From NCBI GenBank assembly GCA_943354045.1, contig CALRBF010000003.1, positions 4,703 through 68,702 on the forward strand: DNA of 64,000 nucleotides, read 5' to 3'. The DNA comes from Parcubacteria group bacterium (GTDB taxonomy: Bacteria; Patescibacteriota; Minisyncoccia; SW-4-49-11). Of the stretch, positions 3,702 to 37,181 are shown one piece after another (the first letter of the stretch is position 1; each line of letters begins with the position of its first letter). Under the pieces are notes generated by a model, which did not search any database, had not been told where the DNA came from, and saw only the letters and a program-made list of their open reading frames with translations. The position numbers were made by a program, and so were the translations under genes.

Positions 3702-6700
3702 TCAATAGATAATAATTACTATCTTTTTGTCCTGATTTACAATAATTTTCTTAATGCGTGTTTTATCTGTGATAATGGTATTTACTTTATCTGATTCTAA
3801 AGCTTTTTGTTGAATAGCCTCATTGTCTAATTGTGCATTAACCGTAATAATATCTCGCATTTTTCCATTAATATGAATTTGATAATCTGCCTCTGTCTGA
3901 ATTAATTTTGATTCATCAAATTGTGGCCAAATAGATTTATGCACTGATTCTGTCTTACCTAATATTTCCCATAATTCTTCCGCAATATGTGGAGCAAATG
4001 GAGCTAAAAGAGTAATATATGTGGTGATATATTCTTTACCAATATCTTTATTAATATAGGTATTGAGATATTCCATCAAACTACTAATACAGGTATTATA
4101 TTTTTGGTTTTCAATATCTTCAGTAATTTTACGTATTAATATATGTGTATCATAATCTAATTTGATTGTATCTACGGCTTTCTCCAATGTTTGAGTTTGC
4201 ATATCAGTAATCCATTGATATACTCGCTTCAAAAATCGACTACATCCAATAAGACCGCTTGTATCCCAAGCAATTGCCTCATCATAAGGTCCCATAAACA
4301 TTTCATAAATTCTCAAAGAATCGGCTCCGAATGATTCTACCATTTCAACTGGATCCACGGTATTACCCTTAGATTTGGACATCTTAATACCCCCTTCAGC
4401 CAAAATCATTCCATGTGCAATACGCTTTTGATAAGGTTCTATTGTCGGTACCAATCCGATATCATATAAGAATTTATGCCAAAAGCGTGAATACAAAAGA
4501 TGCAAAGTTACATGCTCCATACCTCCATTATATAAGTCCACTGGTAGCCATTGCTCTAAAGCAGCTTGGTTTGCTAATTCTTGAGTATTATGAGCATCAG
4601 CATATCTAAGATAATACCAAGAACTTCCTGCCCAATTAGGCATAGTATCTGTTTCTCTGATACCCTCCACCCATTTATCATCGGGCTTAGTCTCGCTACG
4701 AGGAAGTGTTTTACCTGTTTCAATATGATACCAAACTTGAACCCAATCTTTTGCAAGTGCTAATGGCCCCTCACCTTGTCCCTCTGGAATATATGATTCT
4801 ACTTCTGGTAATTCGAGCGGTAATTCTGTTGGAGCCAAGGGAACCGCATATTCCGTATTATTATTTTTTTGTCGAGTAATGGGATTTGCTGGTAGAAACT
4901 TAACAATTTCACCTGATATTTGTCCATAAGACTGCTCATTAATCCACACAATAGGAAATGGCTCTCCCCAATAGCGCTGACGTGAGAATACCCAATCACG
5001 AAGCTTATATTGGATTTTCTGATGACCTAGATTCTTAAATTCTAATTCTTGTGTTAGCTTTTGTTTAGCTTCTAATGTTGATAATCCGTTATATAAATCT
5101 GAGTTCTCTAAAATATTATCCTCTGTAATAACATTGATAATTGCTAAATTATATTTCTCAGCAAATTCTCTATCTCTCTCATCATGAGCGGGTACCGCCA
5201 TCACAGCTCCCGTTCCATAATTCATTAATACATAATCTGCAGTCCAAATAGGAATTTGTTCCCCTGTTAATGGATGTACAGCATAGGCTCCTGTGAATAC
5301 TCCCGTTTTTTCTTTTTCTTGCTGACGATCTAAATCACTTTTTGATTTTGTTTGCTTTTGATAAGTTTGTATTGCTTCTTTATATTCTGATGTGACAATA
5401 GTATCTAAAATTGGATGTTCTGGAGCTAATACCAAAAAGATAACACCAAATAAGGTGTCTATTCTGGTGGTAAAGACTTTTATATTTTTTTTCGGAAATA
5501 TATTCTTTATATCTTCAAATCTTTTTAAAACCTGTTGCTCAGGCAATAAATCAAGGAGAGGCTGTAATCCCATATGTCCCCACCCACAACCAATTAATTT
5601 GTTTTTATCACATAAATTTTCTAATTCATAAATATCGGCTTGTGAATCAGTAAAATAATAAATGTCTTTTTCAGAAACACCCCAATCATTACAGATTATT
5701 TCAATTTTTTCTTCTTTTGAATAATGATCTTCATATGTTAAAACATGTGTAGGATTTACTCCTAATTTTTTAATTTCTTCTATCATTGGAGTAATATATG
5801 CATGCGAACCTGAGGATACAATTGCTATTTTTGTATTTTGTAATTTTACTATTTCATCTATAAATCCATTAAAAATTTTAGGTTCTAATTTTGCAAGAAT
5901 TTCTCCAAACTTTAATGTCCATGCATCAATTCTTTTAATTTCAGAATCTTCAGCACCACGAGCATGTGATGGTTTTTTTGATAAATAATTAAAGTTCTTT
6001 TTAAGAGCTTCAGTTTCATCTATCTGACTTATTTCCATTATTGCTTGTATTGTTTCTTTTTCCGTATCTCCAAGAACTCCATCAAAGTCAAAAATAATAT
6101 ATTTTTCTGTTTGATGTTCTAATTTAAAATCAATCTCACTGCCCTCACTGCGGCCAATCCAATTTCGCTGTTGAGTTTTGATAACAGGCAAATAATCGAC
6201 AATATCTAAATCTTTATCCAATCTATCTGCATATTTGGTAATAGCCAACATCCATTGTGTTAATGACACCCTCTCACAGGGATGCCCCCCGCGCTCTGAC
6301 TTTCCATCAATAACTTCTTCATTAGCAAGAACCGTCTTTAATTCATCACACCACCAAACCTTAGTAGTATCTTGATAAGCAAGTCCAGCTTTATACATTT
6401 GTAGCCATATCCATTGAGTCCAGCGATAATATTGTGGATCAGTAGTATTAATTTCACGACTCCAATCAAAAGATAGTCCTAATAATGCTAATTGTTTTTT
6501 GAAAGTATTAATATTATTTTCTGTTGCAATAATAGGAGATATATTATTTTGAATAGCATAATTTTCTGTTGGTAGACCAAAAGCATCCCAACCTATTGGG
6601 TATAATACATTTTGCCCCTGCATACGATACATTCTTGCCTTTATATCCTGAGCCACATAACTACGAATATGCCCCACATGTAGTCCAGCTCCTGATGGAA

Positions 6701-6821
6701 AAGGAAATTCCACCAAAATATATTTACTTTCTTTACCTGAAGAATTATTAGCCGTATAATCTACAAAGCCTTCAGCCCAGCGCTGTATCCATTTTTGTTC
6801 AATAGTTCTGTGATTATACAT
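3702..6821 (-). CDS. leuS: Leucyl-tRNA synthetase carrying an inserted HAD-like domain
   Basis: 1039 aa. HIGH motif (HVGH), KMSKS motif (KMSKSKGN), editing-domain signatures (TTRIDTLFG; GTGAVMAVPAHDERD) and a bacterial LeuRS C-terminal domain. About 180 aa longer than typical bacterial LeuRS because of the insertion described separately. Confidence 0.92.
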   Translation of the reverse strand: MYNHRTIEQKWIQRWAEGFVDYTANNSSGKESKYILVEFPFPSGAGLHVGHIRSYVAQDIKARMYRMQGQNVLYPIGWDAFGLPTENYAIQNNISPIIATENNINTFKKQLALLGLSFDWSREINTTDPQYYRWTQWIWLQMYKAGLAYQDTTKVWWCDELKTVLANEEVIDGKSERGGHPCERVSLTQWMLAITKYADRLDKDLDIVDYLPVIKTQQRNWIGRSEGSEIDFKLEHQTEKYIIFDFDGVLGDTEKETIQAIMEISQIDETEALKKNFNYLSKKPSHARGAEDSEIKRIDAWTLKFGEILAKLEPKIFNGFIDEIVKLQNTKIAIVSSGSHAYITPMIEEIKKLGVNPTHVLTYEDHYSKEEKIEIICNDWGVSEKDIYYFTDSQADIYELENLCDKNKLIGCGWGHMGLQPLLDLLPEQQVLKRFEDIKNIFPKKNIKVFTTRIDTLFGVIFLVLAPEHPILDTIVTSEYKEAIQTYQKQTKSKSDLDRQQEKEKTGVFTGAYAVHPLTGEQIPIWTADYVLMNYGTGAVMAVPAHDERDREFAEKYNLAIINVITEDNILENSDLYNGLSTLEAKQKLTQELEFKNLGHQKIQYKLRDWVFSRQRYWGEPFPIVWINEQSYGQISGEIVKFLPANPITRQKNNNTEYAVPLAPTELPLELPEVESYIPEGQGEGPLALAKDWVQVWYHIETGKTLPRSETKPDDKWVEGIRETDTMPNWAGSSWYYLRYADAHNTQELANQAALEQWLPVDLYNGGMEHVTLHLLYSRFWHKFLYDIGLVPTIEPYQKRIAHGMILAEGGIKMSKSKGNTVDPVEMVESFGADSLRIYEMFMGPYDEAIAWDTSGLIGCSRFLKRVYQWITDMQTQTLEKAVDTIKLDYDTHILIRKITEDIENQKYNTCISSLMEYLNTYINKDIGKEYITTYITLLAPFAPHIAEELWEILGKTESVHKSIWPQFDESKLIQTEADYQIHINGKMRDIITVNAQLDNEAIQQKALESDKVNTIITDKTRIKKIIVNQDKKIVIIIY
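5487..6110 (-). other. In-frame HAD-superfamily (phosphatase/beta-phosphoglucomutase-like) domain inserted in LeuRS between the catalytic core and the CP1 editing domain (aa ~238-445)
   Basis: Four ordered HAD motifs: motif I FDFDGVLGDT (DxDGV), motif II IAIVSSGS, a Lys-containing KEEKIEII segment, motif IV FTDSQAD. The flanks align with E. coli LeuRS (RNWIGRSEG.EI.F ... TTRPDT). Confidence 0.6.
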
Positions 6822-6876: not shown

Positions 6877-7557
6877 TTAGCGCAATCTTGACCCCAATAT
6901 TTCCCCTGTATTAATATTACAGTTTAAGATTATTGCTTGAGCTAATGGTAAATCTATTTGAAGAGTATCCTCTATTGAGGTTTTTTGAAAATAATGAATA
7001 AATCCTTTTATACTATCATGATGAGCAATAATAAGAATGTTTTTGTCCTGCTTTAATAAAGGAATTATAGTGTCCTCTATAAGACTATTTACTCTTTTTA
7101 CAACATCTTCTAAACTTTCTGCTGAAGGCAATAATTCTGGCGCAATATAAGCATATCTTCTATCCTTACTTGGATGATGAGCATCACTAATATCTACCGC
7201 TTCAGTTTTTTTATCCCAACTTGATACAATATTTTCAATATCTGGATATTGTAATAAAGCTTCTTGATGAGTAAGTCCTTGTATTTTCCCATAATGCCTT
7301 GGATTCAGTCTCCAATCATGTATTTCCGGCATCCAAGAATGATACATATTATTAAGTACCGTCCAACCACTTACAATAGATCGCTCTAATACTGAAGTAA
7401 TCATAATATCTATATGAAATCCTTTGTTTAAAAGTATATTACCCATATGCTGTAATGATTCTCTCGCATTAACTAATGGGACATCTTCCCAACCAATATA
7501 TCTATTTTCTTGAGCCCATACACTATCCCCATGTCTAATTAATATAATTTGTGCCAT
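6877..7557 (-). CDS. Histidine phosphatase superfamily protein (divergent phosphoglycerate-mutase-like paralog)
   Basis: 226 aa. RHG motif (ILIRHGDSVW) and overall dPGM-like layout. Lies directly downstream of gpmA on the same strand. Confidence 0.65.
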   Translation of the reverse strand: MAQIILIRHGDSVWAQENRYIGWEDVPLVNARESLQHMGNILLNKGFHIDIMITSVLERSIVSGWTVLNNMYHSWMPEIHDWRLNPRHYGKIQGLTHQEALLQYPDIENIVSSWDKKTEAVDISDAHHPSKDRRYAYIAPELLPSAESLEDVVKRVNSLIEDTIIPLLKQDKNILIIAHHDSIKGFIHYFQKTSIEDTLQIDLPLAQAIILNCNINTGEILGSRLR

Positions 7558-7563
7558 ATCTAT

Positions 7564-8313
7564 TTATTTAAACAAAGATTTAATTTTATCCCAAAATGTG
7601 ATATTTTTTTTCAAGGCATCATTAAGATAATAACGCTTCTCTACTTTTAAATCTGACTCCCTAAGATGATATATCAATGGCTGTCCAGTTGGAATTTCTA
7701 AATCAATAATTTTTTTATCTGAAATATGTTCAATAAATTTTACTAATGCTCTTAAACTATTCCCATGTGCTGAGATAATAATTCTTTTTCCTGACAATAT
7801 AGCTGGCTTTAATTCTTGTTCCCAATAAGGGGAAACTCTATCCAAAGTATCCTTAAGAGATTCTCCAATAGGTAATTTATCCTTAGGAATACTCTTATAC
7901 CTATCATCAGAGGCTGGATATCGTGAATCATATTCTGATAATAGCGGAGGTCTAATAGCAAAAGCTCTTCTCCACACCTTTACCTGATATTCTCCAAACT
8001 CTTCTATCGCATCAGTTTTATCTTTTCCTTGTAATCCCCCATAATGTCTCTCATTAAGATGCCAATTTTTAATAACTGGTATCCATGTCATATGAGCTGA
8101 TTCTAGCGCATATTGTAATGTATCAACAGCACGATCTAGAACAGAAGTATAAGCAATATCAAACTCAAAACCATTCTGCTTTAAAGCAATTCCCAATGTT
8201 TTAGCTTCTTGTATACCTTTAGCAGATAATTCTATATCAGTCCAGCCAGTAAATTTATCTAGCTGATTCCATACACTTTCGCCATGGCGAATAAGCACCA
8301 ATGTATAGGCCAT
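7564..8313 (-). CDS. gpmA: 2,3-bisphosphoglycerate-dependent phosphoglycerate mutase
   Basis: 249 aa. LVLIRHGESVWNQLDKFTGWTD catalytic His motif plus the conserved GpmA C-terminal region. Confidence 0.85.
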   Translation of the reverse strand: MAYTLVLIRHGESVWNQLDKFTGWTDIELSAKGIQEAKTLGIALKQNGFEFDIAYTSVLDRAVDTLQYALESAHMTWIPVIKNWHLNERHYGGLQGKDKTDAIEEFGEYQVKVWRRAFAIRPPLLSEYDSRYPASDDRYKSIPKDKLPIGESLKDTLDRVSPYWEQELKPAILSGKRIIISAHGNSLRALVKFIEHISDKKIIDLEIPTGQPLIYHLRESDLKVEKRYYLNDALKKNITFWDKIKSLFK

Positions 8314-11906: not shown

Positions 11907-12371
11907 ATGACACAGGGTAAATTACGGAAAAATGTACTTGCTATCATCTTTGATGCAGATGGCAATGTACTTATTGTATCAAGATCCAATGACCCTCTTC
12001 ATTGGCAATTTCCTCAGGGAGGAGTAAATGAGGGTGAGACCAATCAAGAGGCGGTACTACGGGAATTAGGAGAAGAACTACATACTACAGAATTTAATCT
12101 CTTGGCTGAGTGTTCTGAAAAACATATATATCGCTGGGCAAAAAAATTAATTCGTGATGAAAATCTAGGCCAGGAACAAACTATTATGTTACTCAAATTT
12201 ACGGGAAATACCAAATCAATACAAGTGGATCGCCGCGAACTTGGAGGGTTTTTATGGGTACCTCAAGATAAAATTGAAATTTTCCTACATGAATACCGTA
12301 AGCCCGTATGGAATATTGTATTAAAACATTATTCCAAAGAGCAAATTACTTCTTTATTGACTAATGAATAA
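11907..12371 (+). CDS. NUDIX hydrolase
   Basis: 154 aa. Nudix box GGVNEGETNQEAVLRELGEELH (Gx5Ex7REUxEExGU). Confidence 0.8.
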   Translation: MTQGKLRKNVLAIIFDADGNVLIVSRSNDPLHWQFPQGGVNEGETNQEAVLRELGEELHTTEFNLLAECSEKHIYRWAKKLIRDENLGQEQTIMLLKFTGNTKSIQVDRRELGGFLWVPQDKIEIFLHEYRKPVWNIVLKHYSKEQITSLLTNE

Positions 12372-12374
12372 TAT

Positions 12375-13598
12375 ATGTATCAATCATCTCTTATTTCTAA
12401 AACTCGCAAACAAATCAGCCAATCCGAGGAGTCTTTAAATGCCCAAATTCTTATCAAGGCTGGATTTGTTGATCAAGTTATGGCAGGAGTATATGCCTAT
12501 TTGCCTTTGGGTTATCGTGTTATTCAAAATATTGAAAAGATTGTAAGAGAAGAATTAGCAGCTATATCAGCTCAAGAAATTCTCTTACCAGCCCTACAAC
12601 CAAAATCTTATTGGGAAAAAACTGGGCGCTGGGATAATCTCGATGTTTTATATCGTTTTACCTCATATTATACTAATACTGAATTAGCTCTTGGCTCTAC
12701 CCATGAAGAAATTATCACCCCACTTGCTCAAAACTTAATTCAATCCTATCAAGATTTACCTTTGGCAGCCTATCAAATTCAAACTAAATTTAGAGATGAG
12801 AAACGAGCAAAATCTGGATTGCTACGGGGAAGAGAATTTATTATGAAAGATTTGTATTCTTTTCATAGTAATAGTGAAGATTTGGATGCATATTATGATA
12901 TTGTTATTCAAGCCTATATCAATATTTATAAGAGACTTGGACTTGGAGATAAGACGCTCAAAACATATGCTTCTGGTGGGAGTTTTAGTAAATATTCTCA
13001 TGAATTTCAGACTTTATCAGATATTGGAGAAGATACCATATTTGTATGTGAGAAATGTAATATTGCTATAAATCAAGAAATTATCGATGAGCAAAATACT
13101 TGTCCTGAATGTGGAAATAGTGATTTGATTGAAAAAAAAGCTATTGAAGTTGGTAATATTTTTAAATTACAAACAAAATATTCTGATGCTTTTGGACTTG
13201 AGTTTACTGATGATAAAGGACAAAATAAGCCCGTAATTATGGGATGTTATGGGATTGGGATTTCACGACTTATGGGAACTATCGTAGAAATATTTGCTGA
13301 GAATAATGCAAAAATGCTATGGCCAGCTGAAATAAGTCCTTTTGATACACATATTATTGTACTCAATACCGATTCTGCTGAAGTGAAAAATAAAGCTGAA
13401 GAGCTTTATCAGCAGTATCAAAAAAATGGAAAATCCGTATTATTTGACAGTCGTGATGAAAGACCAGGTGTTAAATTTGCTGATGCTGATTTGATTGGAA
13501 TTCCTGAAAGAATTATTATAAGTAAAAAAAGTTTAGAGCAAAATGGAGTCGAGATAAATGGGGTTATTATCCCTTTTGAAAAAATCTATAAATTCTAA
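12375..13598 (+). CDS. proS: Prolyl-tRNA synthetase, minimal bacterial-type lacking the INS editing domain
   Basis: 407 aa. Class II motif 2 YQIQTKFRDEKRAKSGLLRGREFIMKDLYSFH is near-identical to the E. coli ProRS motif 2. Motif 3 GCYGIGISR is present, as is a C-terminal class II anticodon-binding domain. An internal C-x2-C...C-x2-C zinc ribbon is also present. Confidence 0.8.
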   Translation: MYQSSLISKTRKQISQSEESLNAQILIKAGFVDQVMAGVYAYLPLGYRVIQNIEKIVREELAAISAQEILLPALQPKSYWEKTGRWDNLDVLYRFTSYYTNTELALGSTHEEIITPLAQNLIQSYQDLPLAAYQIQTKFRDEKRAKSGLLRGREFIMKDLYSFHSNSEDLDAYYDIVIQAYINIYKRLGLGDKTLKTYASGGSFSKYSHEFQTLSDIGEDTIFVCEKCNIAINQEIIDEQNTCPECGNSDLIEKKAIEVGNIFKLQTKYSDAFGLEFTDDKGQNKPVIMGCYGIGISRLMGTIVEIFAENNAKMLWPAEISPFDTHIIVLNTDSAEVKNKAEELYQQYQKNGKSVLFDSRDERPGVKFADADLIGIPERIIISKKSLEQNGVEINGVIIPFEKIYKF

Positions 13599-18907: not shown

Positions 18908-18998
18908 ATATTATTAGTATATCATATTCAATAATTATTGCCCATATAGTTTAGACAGGCTCAAAAGTATATGTTATACTAAATTATATATATATGCC

Positions 18999-21989
18999 AT
19001 GGCTTCAATAAATAAACAATCAAATCGTCAAAGTTTTCGAGAAAAACTCCAGACTAATACAACTGCGGGATCAAATTTAATATTAATTCGAAAGAAAGAA
19101 GAGGAGCTTGCCACACAAAGAAAGGCAAACTCTCTTGGAATTGCCTATATTAATCTTAAATTTATTCCTATTAATCCTGATGCTCTTAAAATATTAACAC
19201 AAGAACAAGCCAAGAAGGCTGGAATGATTATATTTCAGCGCTCAGGAATTCATCTCAAAATTGCTATTGCAGACATTAATAATCCCCTTACCAAAACAAT
19301 TCTTCAACAATTTTATCAAAAAGAATATCAGATAGAATTATATTTGGTATCAAAATATAGTCTCGAGAAAGGATATGCTTCTTATGATTTTCTTCAAGAT
19401 AGAGGGCAAATTGTAAAAGATAGACTACTTATTCCTGAGCATATGATAAAAGATGCTCAGAGTGATATTGTGAAACTTGAAGATTTTGCTGACAAAATTA
19501 ATTCTGTAGAAATTTCAGAATTAATTCAAATGATTTGTGCGGGAGCCATATCTTCTTTTGCTAGTGATATACATATCGAACCAAAAGCATCTCTTACTCG
19601 CCTACGCTATCGTATTGATGGAGTTTTACAGGATATTTTAAATTTTGATTCTAATTTATATAAATCTCTCATATCACGTATCAAAAATCTTGCGTCTTTG
19701 GTACTCAATGTTAAAAGCACCTCACAAGATGGAAGATTTAGTATTGTAATTATTGATAAAGATGGTGTTAATAAACAAACTATTGATGTAAGAGTTTCTA
19801 TACTTCCCAGCAAAACAGGTGAAATTATTGTAATGAGATTATTGAATACTGAAATCCATAATTTGGATATTCATTCATTTGGGATTAGACCTTCTTTTTT
19901 AGATATTATTATAAGAAATCTTGAAAAATCTCAAGGAATGATTATGTTATCAGGACCAACAGGATCAGGAAAAACTACAAGCCTTTATTCTTTCCTTAAT
20001 TATATCAATAAAAGTGAAACGAATATTATTACTCTTGAAGATCCAATTGAATATCGATTACCAAATATTAATCAAACTCAAGTTGATACAAAAAAAGGCT
20101 ATACGTTTGCTAATGGCTTAAAGGCAATAGTGAGACAAGATCCAGATGTGATTATGATTGGAGAAATTAGAGATAATGATACTGCCAATATTGCGATTAA
20201 TGCCTCTATTACAGGACATCTCGTATTCTCCACTATTCACACCAATGATTCTGTAGGTATTGTGACCAGATTACAAGAATTTGATGTAGCCCCTCCTCTC
20301 ATCATATCTTCTATGAATTTATTTATTGCTCAAAGATTATTAAGGCGATTATGTGAATGTAAAGAAGAATATATTCCTTCAGAAGAGGAAATAACAAGTA
20401 TTAATCATGCTCTTGCTATTATTTCACCTAAATCCAATATCACAATACCTAAAGAAGTAACCAAATTATATAGAGCTAAGGGATGTCCCAAATGTTATGG
20501 GCTTGGATATAAAGGACGACTTGCTATTTATGAATTATTTGAAGCTCGCGATAATATTAAAGAGTTAATTAGTGATAATACTCCTGAGTTTAAAATATTT
20601 CGTAAAGCTATAGAAAATGGAATGGTAACCTTATTTCAAGATGGTATTCTTCATGCTATTGATGGGGAAACTTCATTTGAAGAAGTAGTGACTGTAGCTG
20701 GAGATACCAATTATATTGAAGAATTATATGAATCAACTCTCACATCAGCCCTATCTCGCGGAATTCATATAAAAGCGAATAGTAATCCTCCTCAAATTAG
20801 TCAATTATCTGAATCTATGTCAATTAATGATCAGTTAACTGCTATCACTACAGCCGCTCTCTCAAAAAGAGCTACCGATATTCACCTTGAGCCTGATGAA
20901 GGGAATTTAATTATACGATTTCGTATTGATGGAGTACTCTATGAAGAAGCCCGTATTCCAAAATCTCTTTATCCTCAAATTCTAACTCAAATCAAAATAT
21001 TCTCAGGATTAGCTCTTGATATCAGTAATACCATTCAGGAGGGAAGATTCACTATCTTTGCTGAAAAGAATGTTGATGTGAGGGTTTCTATTATTCCGGG
21101 AGGATATGGACAAACTATTGTACTTCGTATACTAAGATCAGATATAGCAAAACTTGGTCTCAAAGATCTTGGAATGGATGAGTATAATATTGAACTTCTC
21201 AAAGCTCAACTCAAAGCTACTACTGGACTTATATTGGTAACAGGTCCTACTAGCGCTGGAAAATCTACAACCCTGTATGCAACTCTTAATACCCTCAATC
21301 AACCTGGAGTAAAAATCATTACCATTGAAGATCCAATTGAATATAAATTGTCAGGAATTCTCCAAACGAGTATTAATGAAGAAACCGGATATAATTTCCC
21401 CAATGCTATCAGAGCTTTACTTAGACAAAACCCTAATATTGTTCTTATTGGAGAAATTAGGGACAATGAGACCGCCAAAGTAGCCATGCAAACAGCTGCA
21501 ACTGGACATCTTTTGCTATCTACTCTCCATACCAATGATGCTGCTTCTGCAATTTTGAGATTATATGATTTGGGTATTGGTCTTTCTGAAATTGCTGCTT
21601 TTGTAAATGTGACTATTGCGCAGCGAATTATTCGCAAACTTGACCCCAATACTGCTACTACTATCACATTATCTCCTGAACAAAAGGATATTATTCGATC
21701 AAAATTACCAGAACATTATCATAATCTTATTCCTGACACCATATTACAAGCTAATTCAAGCCCTGATCATCCTGATGGATATCTTGGTATTATGGCTATA
21801 TTTGAAGTGCTTGTTATTAGCCCAACTATGAAAGAAATTATTATTAGTCAAGCATCCACTGCCCGTATTAAAGATTTAGCTATTGAAGAGGGAATGACAA
21901 CCTTGGAAGTTTCTGGTATTCTAAAAGTATTAGATCATACCACCGATTTTGCTGAAATCGAAAGAGTATTAGGTGTCACAATATTATAA
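18999..21989 (+). CDS. Tandem-fused double GspE/PilB-type secretion/type IV pilus assembly ATPase
   Basis: 996 aa. Two complete ATPase modules. Walker A motifs GPTGSGKTT and GPTSAGKST. Asp boxes IMIGEIRD and VLIGEIRD. His boxes STIHTNDS and STLHTNDA. Each module has its own N1E-like domain (ASDIHIEP / ATDIHLEP). Only the first carries a tetracysteine zinc motif (CxC...CxxC). A GSPII_E N-terminal domain sits at the start. Confidence 0.85.
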   Translation: MASINKQSNRQSFREKLQTNTTAGSNLILIRKKEEELATQRKANSLGIAYINLKFIPINPDALKILTQEQAKKAGMIIFQRSGIHLKIAIADINNPLTKTILQQFYQKEYQIELYLVSKYSLEKGYASYDFLQDRGQIVKDRLLIPEHMIKDAQSDIVKLEDFADKINSVEISELIQMICAGAISSFASDIHIEPKASLTRLRYRIDGVLQDILNFDSNLYKSLISRIKNLASLVLNVKSTSQDGRFSIVIIDKDGVNKQTIDVRVSILPSKTGEIIVMRLLNTEIHNLDIHSFGIRPSFLDIIIRNLEKSQGMIMLSGPTGSGKTTSLYSFLNYINKSETNIITLEDPIEYRLPNINQTQVDTKKGYTFANGLKAIVRQDPDVIMIGEIRDNDTANIAINASITGHLVFSTIHTNDSVGIVTRLQEFDVAPPLIISSMNLFIAQRLLRRLCECKEEYIPSEEEITSINHALAIISPKSNITIPKEVTKLYRAKGCPKCYGLGYKGRLAIYELFEARDNIKELISDNTPEFKIFRKAIENGMVTLFQDGILHAIDGETSFEEVVTVAGDTNYIEELYESTLTSALSRGIHIKANSNPPQISQLSESMSINDQLTAITTAALSKRATDIHLEPDEGNLIIRFRIDGVLYEEARIPKSLYPQILTQIKIFSGLALDISNTIQEGRFTIFAEKNVDVRVSIIPGGYGQTIVLRILRSDIAKLGLKDLGMDEYNIELLKAQLKATTGLILVTGPTSAGKSTTLYATLNTLNQPGVKIITIEDPIEYKLSGILQTSINEETGYNFPNAIRALLRQNPNIVLIGEIRDNETAKVAMQTAATGHLLLSTLHTNDAASAILRLYDLGIGLSEIAAFVNVTIAQRIIRKLDPNTATTITLSPEQKDIIRSKLPEHYHNLIPDTILQANSSPDHPDGYLGIMAIFEVLVISPTMKEIIISQASTARIKDLAIEEGMTTLEVSGILKVLDHTTDFAEIERVLGVTIL

Positions 21990-30930: not shown

Positions 30931-30936
30931 ATTTGT

Positions 30937-32973
30937 ATGGGAGTTAAAGCGGCTAAATTAATTCAAATCACTGTTCCAAATAATACTCAATTAGAATTAT
31001 TAGCCTATATTCAAAAGCATCAGGTTGGAGAAATTATAGAAAGAGTAGAAAGAACTCCTCTAACTAAAAAATATTTGCATAAACAGGAGGATTTATTAGA
31101 GAATTTAGATATTATCAATAAAGCTTTTGATGTTTATAAAACATATAATCAGCAGAAAAAATCTATTTTAACTAGTCTTATAGATAATCGATTTAGTATT
31201 ACTGAACCTATATTTGAGCATTATGATAAGAATCAAGATCTTATCATTGCCAAAGCCAAAGAAATTGTTGAAAAGGCTGAATTAAAAGATGATTTAACTA
31301 CTCGCCAAGAAATTCTACAAGATATTATTGCTAAATCAGAACCTCTCAAAGATATTGAGCTTAACATTTTTAAGCCCTATTCTTATATTGCTTTTATCCC
31401 CTTCTTGATTGATGAGTCTCGAGCACATTATCTGACAGATCAATTAGAGCATAGTCTCTCTCCTGTAGTTTTAGAATCTGTCAAAAAAGTTGGTACTGAT
31501 TATGTATATATTCTAGCCGTCCCCAAAAATCAGGCTAAAATTGCCCTGGATATAATTCAGAATCAAGCTACCCTGATTCAATTCTCAGCAGAAGTGAAAG
31601 GATCTTTTTATGATGTTTATCATAATAGTAAACAAGAGCTCAATGCCAATACTAAGAAAATTAATACATTAAATCGAGAGTTAAAAAAATCTCCCGTTAA
31701 AATGAAAGACTTAGCTATTTTAGTTGATGTATTAAACTCTCAATTAAATTTAATCTCTTATTTACACTCTTTTAATCCTGAGTCGGAGACTACTTCCTCA
31801 ATACAATTATGGGTAGATGCGGAAAAATTCAACTCAACCAAACAACCTATTTTAGGTATTTCAGAGGATATTACAATTGTAGAATTACCTTCTGATGCTG
31901 AGAATACTCCGATTATATTAAAAAATTTACCGATTATTAGACATTTTGAGACTGTGACCAAAATTATGGGCTATCCGCAAGCTGGTAAAATTGACCCGAC
32001 TTTGTCTATTGCTATATTCTTTACCTTTATGTTTGGATTAGCTTTATCTGAGGCTGGATATGCTTTAATCTTGATTGTTTTGACTGGGCTTGGTTTATTA
32101 AATCCTAGATTAAAATCAGGAATTCGAGATATCTTTGCGGTAGTATTTATTGCTTCTATCTCCACTTTGATTATAGGAGCTCTCTTTGGTAGTTGGTTTG
32201 GAATTACTCCAGATGCAGTTGACTATGCTACTGCCTCTCCTCATATGAAATTCTTGATTAGTATTGGACTGATCCCTTTCTTACAACAATTACAAATTAT
32301 CAACCCTATGGACAGTGTAATTGCCTTGATGGGATTCACTATTGTATTAGGTATTATTCATCTTTTATTTGGTTTGGTTCTCAATATTGTACAGGCTTTC
32401 AATCAAAAATCATTCTGGGATGCTAGCCTAGATTCTATTCTTTGGGCTTTGGCTTTAATCTTTGGAATATTCTTATTAGTGATTAACTTTGGATTATTAG
32501 GAGATGGTTTCAAACTTCTTATTGATCCTCTACTTTACTCCTATATTGCTTATGTTTTTGTGATGACATATCTACTAGGGCGAGAAATGAAGTCTATTTT
32601 TACTAAATTTGGTAAAGGAGCTTATGATGTTTTCTTTGGAGTTGTAGGATATTTGTCAGATATACTATCATACACTAGATTAGTAGCTCTGGGTCTTGCA
32701 ACCGGTATTATTGCTGGTGTAGTAGGAACCTTAGCTAATTTAGCTGGTGGTGGTTTGGTAGAAAAAGGGGGTGCCTGGCTCATTATTGGTTATATTATTA
32801 TGACTGTCATCTTTATTGCTGGAAATATATTTAATATTGCTTTGAATGTACTTGGTACTTATATTAATGTAGGTAGATTACATTTTGTAGAATTCTTTAG
32901 TAAATTCTTCCAATCCGGGGGGAAACCTTTACAAGTTGTCACAAGATCTCAAGAGTACAGTATTATTGAATAA
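30937..32973 (+). CDS. atpI: V/A-type ATPase subunit I (a-subunit, membrane stator)
   Basis: 678 aa. Soluble N-terminal half and polytopic C-terminal half with the conserved Arg-containing helix (SYTRLVALGLATG). Confidence 0.8.
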   Translation: MGVKAAKLIQITVPNNTQLELLAYIQKHQVGEIIERVERTPLTKKYLHKQEDLLENLDIINKAFDVYKTYNQQKKSILTSLIDNRFSITEPIFEHYDKNQDLIIAKAKEIVEKAELKDDLTTRQEILQDIIAKSEPLKDIELNIFKPYSYIAFIPFLIDESRAHYLTDQLEHSLSPVVLESVKKVGTDYVYILAVPKNQAKIALDIIQNQATLIQFSAEVKGSFYDVYHNSKQELNANTKKINTLNRELKKSPVKMKDLAILVDVLNSQLNLISYLHSFNPESETTSSIQLWVDAEKFNSTKQPILGISEDITIVELPSDAENTPIILKNLPIIRHFETVTKIMGYPQAGKIDPTLSIAIFFTFMFGLALSEAGYALILIVLTGLGLLNPRLKSGIRDIFAVVFIASISTLIIGALFGSWFGITPDAVDYATASPHMKFLISIGLIPFLQQLQIINPMDSVIALMGFTIVLGIIHLLFGLVLNIVQAFNQKSFWDASLDSILWALALIFGIFLLVINFGLLGDGFKLLIDPLLYSYIAYVFVMTYLLGREMKSIFTKFGKGAYDVFFGVVGYLSDILSYTRLVALGLATGIIAGVVGTLANLAGGGLVEKGGAWLIIGYIIMTVIFIAGNIFNIALNVLGTYINVGRLHFVEFFSKFFQSGGKPLQVVTRSQEYSIIE

Positions 32974-35035: not shown

Positions 35036-35352
35036 ACTATAAAAAACCCGTTGTAATTGCTGAATCAGATATTATTCTTTTATTTCAATTATTTGGATTT
35101 GAGACTTTCAATAGTGAGAATATTTCATTAGATATTATCATTCAATCTATTGAGAAAGATATAGAGCAATATGCTATTCTCTTTATATCTTCCTCCATTA
35201 TACTTAATCCAAAACAACGAAAAATTATGAACTCATTTAATATCCCTATTTCAGAGCTCCCTATCAGCAGCGATAGCTCTTCTGTAGATGAGCTAAAACG
35301 GCTCACTGAGAAAGCTGTGGGAATGAGCCTCGACACATTATTCGCGTCTTGA
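35029..35352 (+). CDS. V/A-type ATPase subunit F
   Basis: 107 aa. Small alpha/beta protein sitting immediately upstream of the catalytic A subunit. Confidence 0.55.
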
Positions 35353-37181
35353 TTAATCTAACTATTATGAATACTGGAACAATTATCAAAATCTCTGGCC
35401 CCCTTGTTATCGCTGACTCTATGAAAGGCAGTAAAATGTATGATTTGGTTAAAGTAGGAAAGCTGGAATTGATGGGAGAAATTATTGAGCTCAAGGATGA
35501 TACCGCCTCTATTCAAGTATATGAAGATACTTCTGGGCTTCGTGTTGGAGAACCGGTATATTCAACTGGTGAACCTCTTAGTATTGAGTTAGGACCTGGA
35601 CTTTTGACTGCTGGATTATTTGATGGAATTTTGCGCCCGCTTAATGTTATTGCTGAAAAAACTGCTGCTAATGGGTTAAATCCAGGATATATTGAAAAAG
35701 GTGTTACTGCTCCCAGCCTCAACCGAGAGACAAAATGGGAATTTAAACCTCTGCTCAAAAAAGGAGACAAGGTAATTGCCGGAGATATACTAGGAACAGT
35801 ACAAGAAACTGAGTTGATAACTCATAAAATTCTAGTACCTTTTGGAGTAGAGGGAGAAATTACCGAGATTAAAACTGGAGCATTTACCGTCACTGAGACA
35901 GTAGCCACTATTGGAGATAATCCCGTACAATTAATGCATAAATGGCCAGTACGTACTCCCCGACCTTATCAAGCCAAACAAATTCCTACTACTCCTCTTA
36001 TTACTCAGCAAAGAATTATTGATACCTTTTTCCCTGTACCAAAAGGAGGAGCTGCTGCGGTACCAGGACCTTTTGGAGCAGGAAAAACCGTTATTCAACA
36101 ACAATTAGCAAAATGGTCTGATGCTGATATTGTGGTTTATGTTGGTTGTGGAGAGCGTGGAAACGAAATTACCGATGTATTAGTAGAATTCCCTCATTTA
36201 AAAGACCCGAATTCTGGCCGACCTCTGATGGAAAGAACTATTTTGGTAGCCAATACTTCCAATATGCCAATTGCTGCTCGTGAAGCTTCTGTCTATACCG
36301 GTATTACCCTAGCTGAATATTATCGAGATATGGGATACAATGTAGCTATGATGGCTGACTCTACTTCTCGATGGGCCGAAGCTATGCGTGAAATGTCAGG
36401 AAGATTAGAAGAAATGCCAGGAGAAGAGGGGTATCCTGCCTATCTTGGATCTCGAATTTCAGCCTTTTATGAAAGAGCAGGTATTGTGACAACCCTTGGA
36501 TCTGAGGGAAGAACTGGATCAGCTACTATTATTGCAGCTGTATCGCCTCCAGGAGGAGATTTATCTGAGCCTGTTAGTCAAGCTACCCTTAAAGTAACCA
36601 AAGCTTTTTGGGGATTAGACGCTTCTTTGGCTGCAAAAAAACATTTTCCATCTATTCATTGGCTTAATAGTTACAGTCTTTATAAGGACAATGTGGAAGA
36701 ATATTTTATCAATGCAACCGATGCTGATTGGAAAGAATTGCGTGATCTTGCTATGCAAATTTTACAAAAAGAAAATGAACTTGATGATATTATAAAATTA
36801 GTGGGAATGGACGCCCTATCTAGCGCTGAGAAAATTCTCCTAGACACTGCTCGTGGTCTCAGAGAAGATTATCTTCAACAAAATGCCTTCGATGAAGTTG
36901 ACGCTTTTGCCTCTACGCGAAAAATGTATCTGATGCTCAAAGCGATGTTAACCTTCCATCAAGAAGCTTTGGCATTCACTCAAGGTAATACTCAAATTGA
37001 AATTAATGATATATTAGAGCTCCCAATAAGAGAGTCTATTAGTCAACTCAAGAACATACCTGAATCTAATATAGAGTCAATTGTTACTTTAATTGATTCT
37101 ATTGCTCCTATCATCAAAAATCTCAAAGAGAATAATCAAGACTCAGACTTTGGTATTAATAAAGTAATCAACGGAATTTAG
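35349..37181 (+). CDS. atpA: V/A-type ATPase catalytic subunit A
   Basis: 610 aa. Walker [10 protein letters not shown], Walker B region, A-subunit-specific non-homologous insert. Confidence 0.9.

What the first reader, a model, noticed from the sequence alone, without database searches (positions are those of the whole stretch)
5487..6110. HAD-phosphatase-like domain inserted in frame into leucyl-tRNA synthetase
LeuRS here is about 180 aa longer than the bacterial norm. The extra ~205 aa sit between the conserved RNWIGRSEG.EI.F strand and the TTRxDT start of the CP1 editing domain. They contain all four HAD-superfamily motifs in order (FDFDGVLGDT; IAIVSSGS; a Lys segment; FTDSQAD). Catalytic HIGH and KMSKS motifs and the editing residues are intact, so this looks like a functional domain acquisition, not decay. 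To my knowledge a HAD-type phosphatase/mutase module inside an aaRS is not a described architecture. It sits next to two phosphoglycerate-mutase-family genes, which may be coincidence.
Basis: partly seen in the sequence, partly recalled or inferred. Interest (0 to 1): 0.7.

Follow-up and report, generated by a model that had tools for sequence, protein, structure and literature searches.

The report
Phosphatase domain nested inside leucyl-tRNA synthetase
A complete, apparently active HAD-type phosphatase sits in frame inside the editing domain of an otherwise normal leucyl-tRNA synthetase. It is one case of a wider habit, which I could not find described, of ultra-small (Patescibacteria) bacteria plugging this same phosphatase into essential translation and nucleotide enzymes.

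Summary

It is not a chimera. Independent assemblies carry the same allele in identical synteny. Near-identical genomes carry an insert-free 833-aa allele or a NUDIX-bearing allele at the same locus. The insert is under purifying selection (omega about 0.2). It is much younger than the host gene (dS 0.2 against 0.7-0.9), which indicates lateral exchange by recombination.

The insert belongs to a small Patescibacteria HAD family. Members occur as stand-alone genes of about 205 aa, which in 15 of 37 informative clusters lie one or two genes upstream of leuS. Others are nested at four or more different LeuRS loops. The family also occurs in ValRS, AlaRS, a class II aaRS, EngA, PNPase and CTP synthase, often with NUDIX, Ham1 or alpha/beta-hydrolase modules.

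The substrate is unknown; a nucleotide-derived small phosphate compound is my best guess. I found no published description. Verdict: a real new domain architecture. Interest 0.68.

The parts
3702..6821 (-). leuS CDS, 1039 aa plus stop; a bacterial-type LeuRS carrying a nested HAD domain
   Evidence: ORF; TIGR00396 898 bits, Pfam tRNA-synt_1, tRNA-synt_1_2 and Anticodon_1; PDB LeuRS hits at E 6e-177
6141..6821 (-). LeuRS N-terminal catalytic part (aa 1-227) up to RNWIGRSEG, including HIGH (HVGH aa 48-51 = 6669..6680)
   Evidence: Aligns to T. thermophilus LeuRS 4-238; about 98% DNA identity to the insert-free allele L001; motif positions
5481..6140 (-). Allele-specific segment (aa 228-447): hairpin strand 1 (SEIDFKLE), the HAD domain, and hairpin strand 2 (NIKVF). 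It replaces the 13 aa VQLKFQILDSDAS of the insert-free allele
   Evidence: DNA and protein alignment with L001 and L003; lower GC of 26-30%
5487..6110 (-). HAD-IA phosphatase domain with a C1 helical cap (aa 238-445)
6063..6092 (-). HAD motif I FDFDGVLGDT (nucleophile D245, acid/base D247)
   Evidence: D/D conserved in 28 of 28 LeuRS-embedded and 185 of 187 stand-alone copies
5805..5828 (-). HAD motif II IAIVSSGS (S336)
5706..5729 (-). HAD motif III region DHYSKEEK (K369), a family-specific signature
5634..5654 (-). HAD motif IV FTDSQAD (D392, D396)
5172..5471 (-). Core of the CP1 editing domain downstream of the insert: Thr-rich TTRIDT (5454..5471) to GTGAVMAVPAHDERD (5172..5216)
   Evidence: Pfam tRNA-synt_1_2, aa 444-607, 194 bits; alignment to PDB editing domains
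4371..4385 (-). KMSKS loop (aa 813-817)
3819..4148 (-). Anticodon-binding domain (aa 892-1001)
   Evidence: Pfam Anticodon_1 70.9 bits

Best explanation
The 208 extra residues are a complete, catalytically competent HAD-IA phosphatase with a C1 cap, which typically limits such enzymes to small-molecule substrates. The domain is nested in frame into the loop of the first beta-hairpin of the LeuRS CP1 editing domain. The protein stays one polypeptide: there are no intein features. The surrounding LeuRS is intact and presumably charges and edits tRNA-Leu normally, while the HAD domain works as a tethered accessory hydrolase.

The domain belongs to a small Patescibacteria-specific HAD family with a marked affinity for LeuRS. 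As a free gene of about 205 aa it often lies one or two genes upstream of leuS. It has been nested independently at four or more LeuRS loops. It also occurs in ValRS, AlaRS, a class II aaRS, EngA/Der, PNPase and CTP synthase, usually alongside NUDIX, Ham1 or alpha/beta-hydrolase modules.

In the window's lineage the cassette is a recent, laterally exchanged allele. Near-identical genomes carry an insert-free or a NUDIX-bearing leuS at the same locus.

The most likely chemistry is Mg-dependent hydrolysis of a nucleotide-derived small phosphate compound (an NMP-type or PPi-type substrate). This would act as nucleotide house-cleaning or product removal, together with the NUDIX/Ham1 partners.

Shown: architecture, fold, motif conservation, purifying selection, distribution, gene linkage and lateral exchange. 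Inferred: enzymatic activity, substrate class and any kinetic coupling to LeuRS.

For: Catalytic residues: D245, D247, S336, K369, D392 and D396 are kept in 28 of 28 LeuRS-embedded copies and in 73-75 of 77 embedded copies overall.

Selection and age: omega is 0.19-0.23 in the insert. dS is 0.16-0.21 in the insert against 0.67-0.91 in the flanking leuS for window versus L003. The window's leuS flanks are about 98% (N-terminal) and 93% (C-terminal) identical to the insert-free L001.

Not an artefact: the same allele occurs in four or more contigs from ENA and JGI with identical synteny. The exact protein is also in NCBI, ENA and Logan.

Recurrent association with LeuRS: insertion sites A, B, C and D. 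The HAD domains cluster by site, at 60-73% identity within a site and about 50% across sites, which is the same as to stand-alone copies. 18 of 23 embedded copies in the metagenome sample are in LeuRS. 13 of 41 non-redundant stand-alone genes have leuS as the next gene on the same strand and 2 more have it second, that is 15 of the 37 with an assessable downstream gene (also L025).

Nucleotide link: there are Ham1-NUDIX-HAD and HAD-NUDIX fusions. One stand-alone copy lies in a thyA-dcd-HIT-CYTH-DHFR cluster. Neighbours include Ham1, dUTPase and dCTP deaminase. All identified hosts are nucleotide-using enzymes. 19 of 27 complete HAD-linked LeuRS also carry a NUDIX insert.
Against: The substrate is not established. 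No curated equivalog model reaches its cutoff, the closest solved structures are only 13-20% identical, and a profile search of PDB sequences gives only E about 1e-3.

Insert-free alleles at about 98% DNA identity show that LeuRS does not need the domain.

The variety of hosts (GTPase, phosphorylase, amidoligase) does not fit a single product-channelling story.

The HAD-leuS gene order may partly reflect inherited synteny within one clade rather than selection. The loci were also found with patterns biased to close relatives of this insert.

In the full-length model the HAD region has only pLDDT 57-80, because just four sequences cover it. No coordinates were available to measure how the HAD active site sits relative to the editing or synthetic sites.
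Confidence: 0.6

Rival explanations
1. Hitch-hiker or carrier model. The HAD domain is an ordinary housekeeping phosphatase whose function has nothing to do with leucylation. LeuRS, like ValRS, EngA, PNPase and CTP synthase, is only a large, constitutively expressed, loop-rich scaffold that tolerates nested domains. The fusion is neutral, or merely saves a promoter in a streamlined genome.
For: Insert-free and insert-bearing alleles coexist at about 98% DNA identity. The same family sits in many unrelated hosts. Many stand-alone copies lie in unrelated contexts: 22 of 37 informative clusters are not next to leuS. The insertion points are variable surface loops.
Against: Hosts are not random large proteins but almost only aaRSs and nucleotide or translation enzymes. 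LeuRS alone accounts for 18 of 23 embedded copies in the metagenome sample, with four or more independent insertion sites. 15 of 37 stand-alone genes sit one or two genes upstream of leuS. NUDIX co-occurs in 19 of 27 linked LeuRS.
Confidence: 0.3
2. Non-catalytic insert. The HAD fold is retained only as a structural or regulatory module, for example to modulate CP1 swivelling or tRNA 3'-end shuttling, and does not hydrolyse anything.
For: It is attached six residues before the Thr-rich editing motif, directly after the RSEG beta-strand linker that tethers CP1. That this linker acts as the CP1 hinge is my own knowledge and was not tested here.
Against: Every catalytic residue of the four HAD motifs is conserved in essentially all embedded copies, as strictly as in the free enzymes. 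omega is about 0.2. The same domain works as a free protein.
Confidence: 0.05
3. Intein-like or otherwise excised selfish element: the insert is removed from the mRNA or the protein, so mature LeuRS is canonical.
For: Patchy presence/absence among near-identical strains, location in a conserved essential gene, and the insert being younger than the host gene resemble intein or homing-element population genetics.
Against: There is no Hint or endonuclease domain. The junction residues are K/Y and K/N rather than Cys/Ser...His-Asn + Cys/Ser/Thr. The whole insert is accounted for by the HAD fold. No Rfam intron family hits the window. No significant terminal repeats were found.
Confidence: 0.02
4. 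Assembly chimera or decaying pseudogene.
For: The insert has lower GC (26-30%) than the flanking leuS.
Against: The 3117-nt reading frame is uninterrupted. The same architecture was assembled independently in several ENA and JGI samples at 79-87% protein identity with identical synteny. Selection is purifying. The junctions fall exactly at a structural hairpin.
Confidence: 0.01

Closest known systems
Canonical bacterial leucyl-tRNA synthetase (TIGR00396; T. thermophilus 1H3N/2BYT, E. coli 4AQ7)
   Same: Class Ia Rossmann core with HIGH and KMSKS, a CP1 editing domain inserted after the Zn-1 region with the Thr-rich and GTG...AHDxRD motifs, an anticodon-binding domain and a C-terminal domain. 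Scores are far above the equivalog cutoff.
   Different: It carries a 208-aa enzymatic domain nested within CP1, a domain within a domain within a domain. Solved LeuRS have a turn of 3 to about 8 residues at that position.
HAD superfamily subfamily IA phosphatases with a C1 cap (COG0546/Gph-like, e.g. 2HSZ, 2HI0, 2HDO; BT2127 pyrophosphatase 3QU2; PpaX)
   Different: Only 13-20% identical. No curated equivalog model reaches its cutoff. The family has its own signatures (KPxHxR in the cap, DHHSKEEK, GCxWG) and is largely confined to Patescibacteria. It is frequently nested in other proteins rather than free.
aaRSs that have acquired extra catalytic domains (e.g. NCBIfam NF040702, IleRS with an N-acetyltransferase domain; trans/cis editing modules)
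   Same: An essential synthetase that carries an additional enzyme domain in the same polypeptide (NF040702 is listed).
   Different: Here the added domain is a phosphatase nested internally at a CP1 loop, not a terminal appendage. It is interchangeable with NUDIX, alpha/beta-hydrolase or no insert among close relatives.
Inteins and homing elements in conserved essential genes
   Same: In-frame insertion in highly conserved genes, patchy strain-level distribution, and an insert younger than its host gene.
   Different: No splicing or endonuclease domain and no splice-junction residues. The insert is an ordinary metabolic enzyme that must stay in the mature protein.

Membership tests
Bacterial-type LeuRS (TIGR00396 leuS_bact) | Whole-protein score above the curated equivalog cutoff | tested here: met
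   898.4 bits against a cutoff of 548.4, in two stretches flanking the insert
Bacterial-type LeuRS (TIGR00396 leuS_bact) | Class I signature motifs HIGH and KMSKS | tested here: met
   HVGH aa 48-51; KMSKS aa 813-817
Bacterial-type LeuRS (TIGR00396 leuS_bact) | CP1 editing domain with the Thr-rich motif and the conserved Asp region | tested here: met
   PF13603 193.7 bits; TTRIDT 451-456, GTGAVMAVPAHDERD 536-550
Bacterial-type LeuRS (TIGR00396 leuS_bact) | Leucylation and editing activity | not testable with these tools
   Inferred from intact motifs and omega of 0.04-0.14 in the LeuRS body
HAD superfamily (PF13419 HAD_2 / PF00702) | Profile score above the Pfam gathering threshold | tested here: met
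   HAD_2 44.4 bits (39.0 in the full protein) against 23.8; PF00702 27.3 against 26.4 for the insert alone
HAD superfamily (PF13419 HAD_2 / PF00702) | Four motifs in order: DxD, S/T, K, and an acidic pair | tested here: met
   D245/D247, S336, K369, D392/D396
HAD superfamily (PF13419 HAD_2 / PF00702) | Rossmannoid alpha/beta core with a cap inserted after strand 1 (C1) | tested here: met
HAD superfamily (PF13419 HAD_2 / PF00702) | Mg-dependent phosphoryl transfer activity | not testable with these tools
   Inferred from conserved catalytic residues only
HAD-IA variant 1 (TIGR01549) | Score above the subfamily cutoff | tested here: inconclusive
   26.0 bits against 23.3 for the insert alone, but 20.3 when scored within the full protein
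Specific HAD enzymes (phosphoglycolate phosphatase, PpaX pyrophosphatase, beta-PGM, MtnX, HxpB) | Score above the equivalog cutoff | tested here: not met
   All 11-24 bits against cutoffs of 81-368
Intein | Hint domain and splice-junction residues (Cys/Ser at the N-end, His-Asn plus Cys/Ser/Thr at the C-end) | tested here: not met
   No Hint or intein Pfam hit; the junctions read ...TEK|YII... and ...PKK|NIK...
Known anti-phage defence proteins (PADLOC-DB) | Match to any defence-system model | tested here: not met
   No hit at E <= 0.01 for the insert or for two stand-alone homologues

The most novel reading that the evidence does not exclude
Patescibacteria possess a previously unrecognised system of interchangeable, laterally exchanged hydrolase plug-in cassettes. 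These comprise one dedicated HAD phosphatase family plus NUDIX, Ham1 and alpha/beta-hydrolase modules. They are nested in frame into surface loops of essential nucleotide-using enzymes (LeuRS above all, then ValRS, AlaRS, EngA, PNPase and CTP synthase). There they give the host enzyme a linked second activity, for example destroying nucleotide by-products or analogues (AMP, PPi, Ap4A, non-canonical NTPs) at the site where they are made or would do harm. Strain-level gain, loss and swapping of cassettes by recombination would make this a new kind of domain-level mobile variation in core translation genes.
Probability: 0.25. Interest if true: 0.85.

Novelty: new variant of a known kind. Interest (0 to 1): 0.68.

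Why it matters
aaRS domain accretion is usually described as a eukaryotic trend involving non-catalytic modules. Here, a minimal-genome bacterial lineage repeatedly nests real hydrolytic enzymes inside the editing domain and other loops of a core synthetase, and swaps them between strains.

If the phosphatase (with its NUDIX partner) acts on nucleotide by-products of aminoacylation or on damaged nucleotides, it would show a new way of coupling translation to nucleotide quality control in organisms that scavenge their nucleotides.

Even if it is only a passenger, three things follow. It identifies permissive insertion sites in LeuRS that are useful for engineering. It gives a natural example of three-level domain nesting. 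It also warns annotators and phylogeneticists that leuS, valS, der, pnp and pyrG of Patescibacteria carry mobile foreign segments that distort alignments and length-based quality checks.

Tried and rejected
1. Full-length alignment including stand-alone HADs (A2). MAFFT smeared the short proteins over the whole LeuRS, so A2 was discarded and A3 used instead. As a result the HAD part of the full-length model rests on 4 sequences and has pLDDT of only 57-80.

2. GTDB genome scan with the whole-domain alignment. I therefore re-ran on metagenome contigs with a C-terminal sub-alignment (A4), which gave 76 loci.

3. The short-word protein search with the insert returned only stand-alone proteins and missed the 87-93% identical embedded copies. 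The exhaustive representative search was needed to see the other hosts.

4. Repeats at the insert boundaries. Only AT-rich imperfect matches were found, including a 20-nt, 80% inverted repeat near both ends. I judged this to be chance, with no target-site duplication.

5. Rfam scan of the window: only one tRNA, and no intron or ribozyme.

6. PADLOC defence models: no hit.

7. NCBIfam on the NUDIX inserts and on stand-alone HADs, to get a substrate: nothing near any cutoff.

8. PDB profile search: only two marginal hits.

9. The afdb50 fold library was unavailable.

10. Second HAD copy in the window: none.

11. Eight literature searches and two papers checked (AARS Online PMC11580382; domain-insertion survey PMC13114784). 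None mentions HAD or NUDIX domains inside LeuRS.

12. Strict complementarity between stand-alone and embedded copies is rejected. L034 has both, side by side, and tandem stand-alone paralogues exist.
Full report
**1. What is in the sequence**

Window 3702..6821 (minus strand) is one uninterrupted ORF of 1039 aa. It is a bacterial-type leucyl-tRNA synthetase:
- TIGR00396 scores 898 bits (cutoff 548), and Pfam finds tRNA-synt_1, the LeuRS editing domain PF13603 and Anticodon_1.
- The best solved relatives are T. thermophilus and E. coli LeuRS (E 6e-177).

Both the profile match and the PDB alignment are split. Query 2-236 aligns to Tt 4-238 and query 446-627 to Tt 242-439. About 208 residues therefore sit where solved enzymes have a three-residue turn.

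The LeuRS motifs are all present: HIGH (HVGH 48-51), KMSKS (813-817), the Thr-rich editing motif (TTRIDT 451-456) and GTGAVMAVPAHDERD (536-550).

**2. The insert is a real HAD domain**

On its own the insert scores as follows:
- Pfam HAD_2 44.4 bits (cutoff 23.8), PF00702 27.3 bits (26.4) and TIGR01549 HAD-IA-v1 26.0 bits (23.3).
- Stand-alone proteins of about 205 aa from Patescibacteria at E 1e-55, 45-48% identity, covering 97-99% of its length. A whole gene's worth of protein is therefore nested here.

With an alignment of 116 homologues, AlphaFold2 gives pLDDT 96.8 and pTM 0.92. The model shows a central strand carrying the DxD motif, a four-helix C1 cap and an alternating strand/helix Rossmannoid core.

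The four motifs are D245/D247, S336, K369 and D392/D396. These residues are conserved in 28 of 28 LeuRS-embedded copies and in 73-75 of 77 embedded copies overall, as strictly as in 187 free copies.

No curated equivalog (phosphoglycolate phosphatase, PpaX, beta-PGM, MtnX and others) comes near its cutoff. A PDB sequence-profile search gives only two marginal hits. This is an uncharacterised HAD-IA subfamily.

**3. It is neither an artefact nor decay**

The closest database proteins include two 1039-aa LeuRS with the same insert, at 87% and 79% identity. One of them occurs on four or more contigs from ENA and JGI samples. The gene order is the same as in the window: recA, two His_Phos_1 genes, leuS, a beta-CASP RNase, a CoA ligase and tyrS. 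The window protein itself is on record in NCBI, ENA and Logan.

In the full-length AF2 model (pLDDT 85.7, pTM 0.73) the LeuRS parts are confident. Strands 224-234 and 446-451 flank a separately folded HAD unit. That unit has lower confidence (57-80) because only four sequences cover it.

**4. Strain-level polymorphism and lateral exchange**

Thirteen LeuRS that are 84-96% identical to the window's over the aligned LeuRS portion are only 833 aa (one truncated at 797 aa) and lack the insert. Another set at 68-88% identity is about 990 aa and carries a NUDIX domain instead, late in CP1. All three alleles sit in the same syntenic locus.

At the DNA level:
- The window's leuS is about 98% identical to the insert-free L001 upstream of the insert and about 93% downstream.
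- It is only about 85-88% identical to the insert-bearing L003 in those flanks.
- Inside the insert, window and L003 are 93-100% identical.

Nei-Gojobori estimates for window versus L003:
- dS is 0.16-0.21 in the insert, against 0.91 (N-terminal) and 0.67 (C-terminal) in the LeuRS body.
- omega is 0.19-0.23 in the insert, against 0.04-0.14 in the body.

The cassette is therefore under purifying selection and is far younger than the divergence of its host genes. It has been moved between lineages, most simply by homologous recombination within leuS.

The exchanged tract runs from just after RSEG to just before VFTTR. It carries its own versions of the two hairpin strands (SEIDFKLE ... NIKVF) and replaces VQLKFQILDSDAS of the insert-free allele. 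Its GC content (26-30%) is below that of the flanking leuS (35-41%). No terminal repeats or target duplications beyond AT-rich chance matches were found. Nothing intein-like is present.

**5. The same HAD family is tied to LeuRS again and again**

Among LeuRS homologues and fetched loci the family is nested at four or more different positions:
- Site A: the first CP1 hairpin (window, P0121, P0122, P0183 and a Saccharibacteria LeuRS, L010).
- Site C: late CP1, after AHDERDxEFAxK, which is the same loop that takes NUDIX (P0201, P0206, L005).
- Site B: after a CxxC knuckle just before RETDTMP (P0185, P0187-P0190, P0197, P0200 and others).
- Site D: between the KMSKS region and the anticodon-binding domain (L009, P0278, P0280, P0287, P0303).

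Every copy starts near K-x-K-Y-[LI]-I-F-D-F-D-G and ends near D-[IV]-x-x-[IF]-F, which are the ends of the free protein.

The domains cluster by site: 60-73% identity within a site, and about 50% across sites, which is the same as to free copies. This indicates independent insertion events.

Some LeuRS reach 1518-1722 aa, carrying HAD plus one to three NUDIX domains plus an alpha/beta-hydrolase. The alpha/beta-hydrolase occupies the window's site A.

**6. The family is small and has other hosts**

An exhaustive HMMER pass over 1.84 billion cluster representatives found only 178 proteins at E <= 1e-3. Of the 150 listed, 53 are 300 aa or longer. By comparison with the LeuRS body and Pfam these are:
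- about 19 LeuRS
- 5 ValRS/IleRS-like
- 12 EngA/Der GTPases, some with two or three HAD copies
- 3 AlaRS-like
- 1 class II Asp/Lys/Asn-type aaRS with an HD domain
- 2 PNPases
- 1 CTP synthase
- fusions of Ham1-NUDIX-HAD, HAD-NUDIX and Ser_hydrolase-HAD
- 7 unassigned

All identified hosts are nucleotide-using enzymes of translation, RNA or nucleotide metabolism. The recurring companion domains are nucleotide pyrophosphatases.

**7. Gene neighbourhood of the free form**

A metagenome scan with family-specific patterns returned 76 loci.
- 23 ORFs carry an embedded copy, 18 of them in LeuRS.
- 50 complete stand-alone genes fall into 41 clusters at 90% identity.
- In 13 clusters leuS is the very next gene on the same strand, and in 2 more it is the second gene.
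- 22 clusters have other neighbours and 4 end at the contig edge.
- A Kaiserbacteria contig shows the same HAD-leuS(NUDIX) arrangement.

Other contexts:
- An overlap with a HisRS-like gene.
- A thyA / dCTP deaminase / HIT / CYTH / DHFR cluster.
- A GATase gene.
- Across 64 neighbours: DUF5671 (15), pseudouridine synthase (7), HisRS-like (4), Ham1 (3), dCTP deaminase (2) and dUTPase (2).

Of the complete LeuRS in these loci, 10 of 12 next to a free HAD and 9 of 15 with a nested HAD also contain a NUDIX insert.

Two caveats apply. The search patterns favour relatives of this insert. Part of the HAD-leuS adjacency may be inherited synteny.

Free and nested copies are not mutually exclusive: L034 has both, and tandem paralogues exist.

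**8. How it most likely works**

Shown:
- An intact LeuRS.
- An intact, selected HAD-IA fold with all catalytic residues, nested at a naturally variable hairpin loop six residues ahead of the Thr-rich editing motif.
- Recurrent, independent physical linkage of this HAD family, and of NUDIX, to LeuRS.

Inferred:
- The protein is a bifunctional single chain. LeuRS works normally, since insert-free alleles at about 98% identity show that the insert is dispensable for leucylation.
- The HAD domain hydrolyses a small phosphorylated metabolite. C1-capped HADs typically exclude macromolecules; this is my own knowledge of the superfamily.

I favour a nucleotide-derived substrate (NMP-type or PPi-type), acting downstream of or alongside NUDIX/Ham1 in house-cleaning or product removal. 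The reasons are the fusion partners, the nucleotide-metabolism neighbourhoods and the nucleotide-using hosts. This is a weak inference, at about one chance in three.

Whether there is kinetic coupling to LeuRS, or whether LeuRS is only a favoured carrier, remains open. The host spectrum (GTPase, phosphorylase, amidoligase) argues against a single channelling mechanism. The strong LeuRS bias and the operon linkage argue against pure chance.

**9. Comparison with what is known, and novelty**

As a LeuRS and as a HAD the two parts each pass their family tests; see the membership table. The combination resembles other aaRSs that have picked up enzymatic domains, for example the NCBIfam model for IleRS with a GNAT domain listed. 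Its population behaviour resembles that of inteins, but it has none of the defining features of an intein.

Eight full-text searches and two targeted papers gave no description of HAD or NUDIX domains within LeuRS. Automated annotations do exist in public data, for example JGI's 'leucyl-tRNA synthetase/phosphoserine phosphatase'.

I rate it a new variant of known kinds: real, widespread in Patescibacteria and apparently unreported, with the function still to be established.

Noticed in passing
window 11907..12371 (+) and 12375..13598 (+): A 154-aa stand-alone NUDIX gene with an intact Nudix box ends 3 nt before a 407-aa class II aaRS gene. The counterparts in L003 and L103 carry tRNA-synt_2b + HGTP_anticodon. 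The pair is conserved in relatives and is a second hydrolase-aaRS pairing in the same window.
   Followed up: partly
L103:10001-12979 (P0136) and relatives P0137-P0146, P0170-P0173: Close relatives (68-88% identical LeuRS) carry a NUDIX domain nested late in CP1, after AHDERDxEFAEK, instead of the HAD. The synteny is the same. So leuS has three alleles (none, HAD, NUDIX) in one genus-level group.
   Followed up: partly
P0197 (1518 aa), P0200 (1722 aa; also L006:2455-7623): These giant LeuRS carry an alpha/beta-hydrolase at the window's insertion site A, one to three NUDIX domains elsewhere, and the HAD before RETDTMP. That makes up to five foreign enzymatic domains in one synthetase.
   Followed up: partly
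P0241, P0243, P0254, P0282, P0288, P0305 and others (EngA/Der); P0253, P0255, P0267 (ValRS); P0260, P0313 (PNPase); P0290 (CTP synthase); P0345, P0355 (AlaRS); P0299 (class II aaRS + HD); P0251 (Ham1-NUDIX-HAD): The same HAD family is nested in or fused to several other essential nucleotide-using proteins, sometimes in two or three copies per protein.
   Followed up: partly
window 6877..7557 (-) and 7564..8313 (-): Two tandem His_Phos_1 (phosphoglycerate-mutase family) genes lie directly upstream of leuS. They are present identically next to the insert-free, HAD-bearing and NUDIX-bearing alleles, so they are not linked to the insert. The 226-aa copy is divergent and its function is unknown.
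   Followed up: partly
window 18918..21986 (+): A 1023-aa T2SSE/PilB-type ATPase with two T2SSE-matching stretches, roughly twice the usual length. It may be an internal duplication or an insertion.
   Followed up: no
window 30931..32970 (+), 35310..37178 (+): V/A-type ATPase subunit genes (an I-like subunit and the catalytic A subunit) rather than F-type.
   Followed up: no
L048:1760-2995, L076:3252-4990, L090:1-1159, L095:69-2503: Tandem arrays of two or three stand-alone paralogues of the HAD family, some fused to an extra C-terminal region of about 170 aa. In L048 the pair sits directly upstream of leuS.
   Followed up: no
window 5496-5515 / 6085-6104: A 20-nt, 80% complementary inverted repeat lies a few bases inside each end of the insert. 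The sequence is AT-rich, so I judged it to be chance.
   Followed up: no
window 5550..6000: GC content of the insert (26-30%) is clearly below that of the flanking leuS sequence (35-41%). This is consistent with a foreign origin of the cassette.
   Followed up: partly
L099, L044, L046, L043, L040, L068 and others, upstream of stand-alone HAD: A DUF5671 protein of about 300 aa is the commonest upstream neighbour of the free HAD gene (15 of 64 neighbours). This gives a recurrent DUF5671-HAD-leuS gene order.
   Followed up: no
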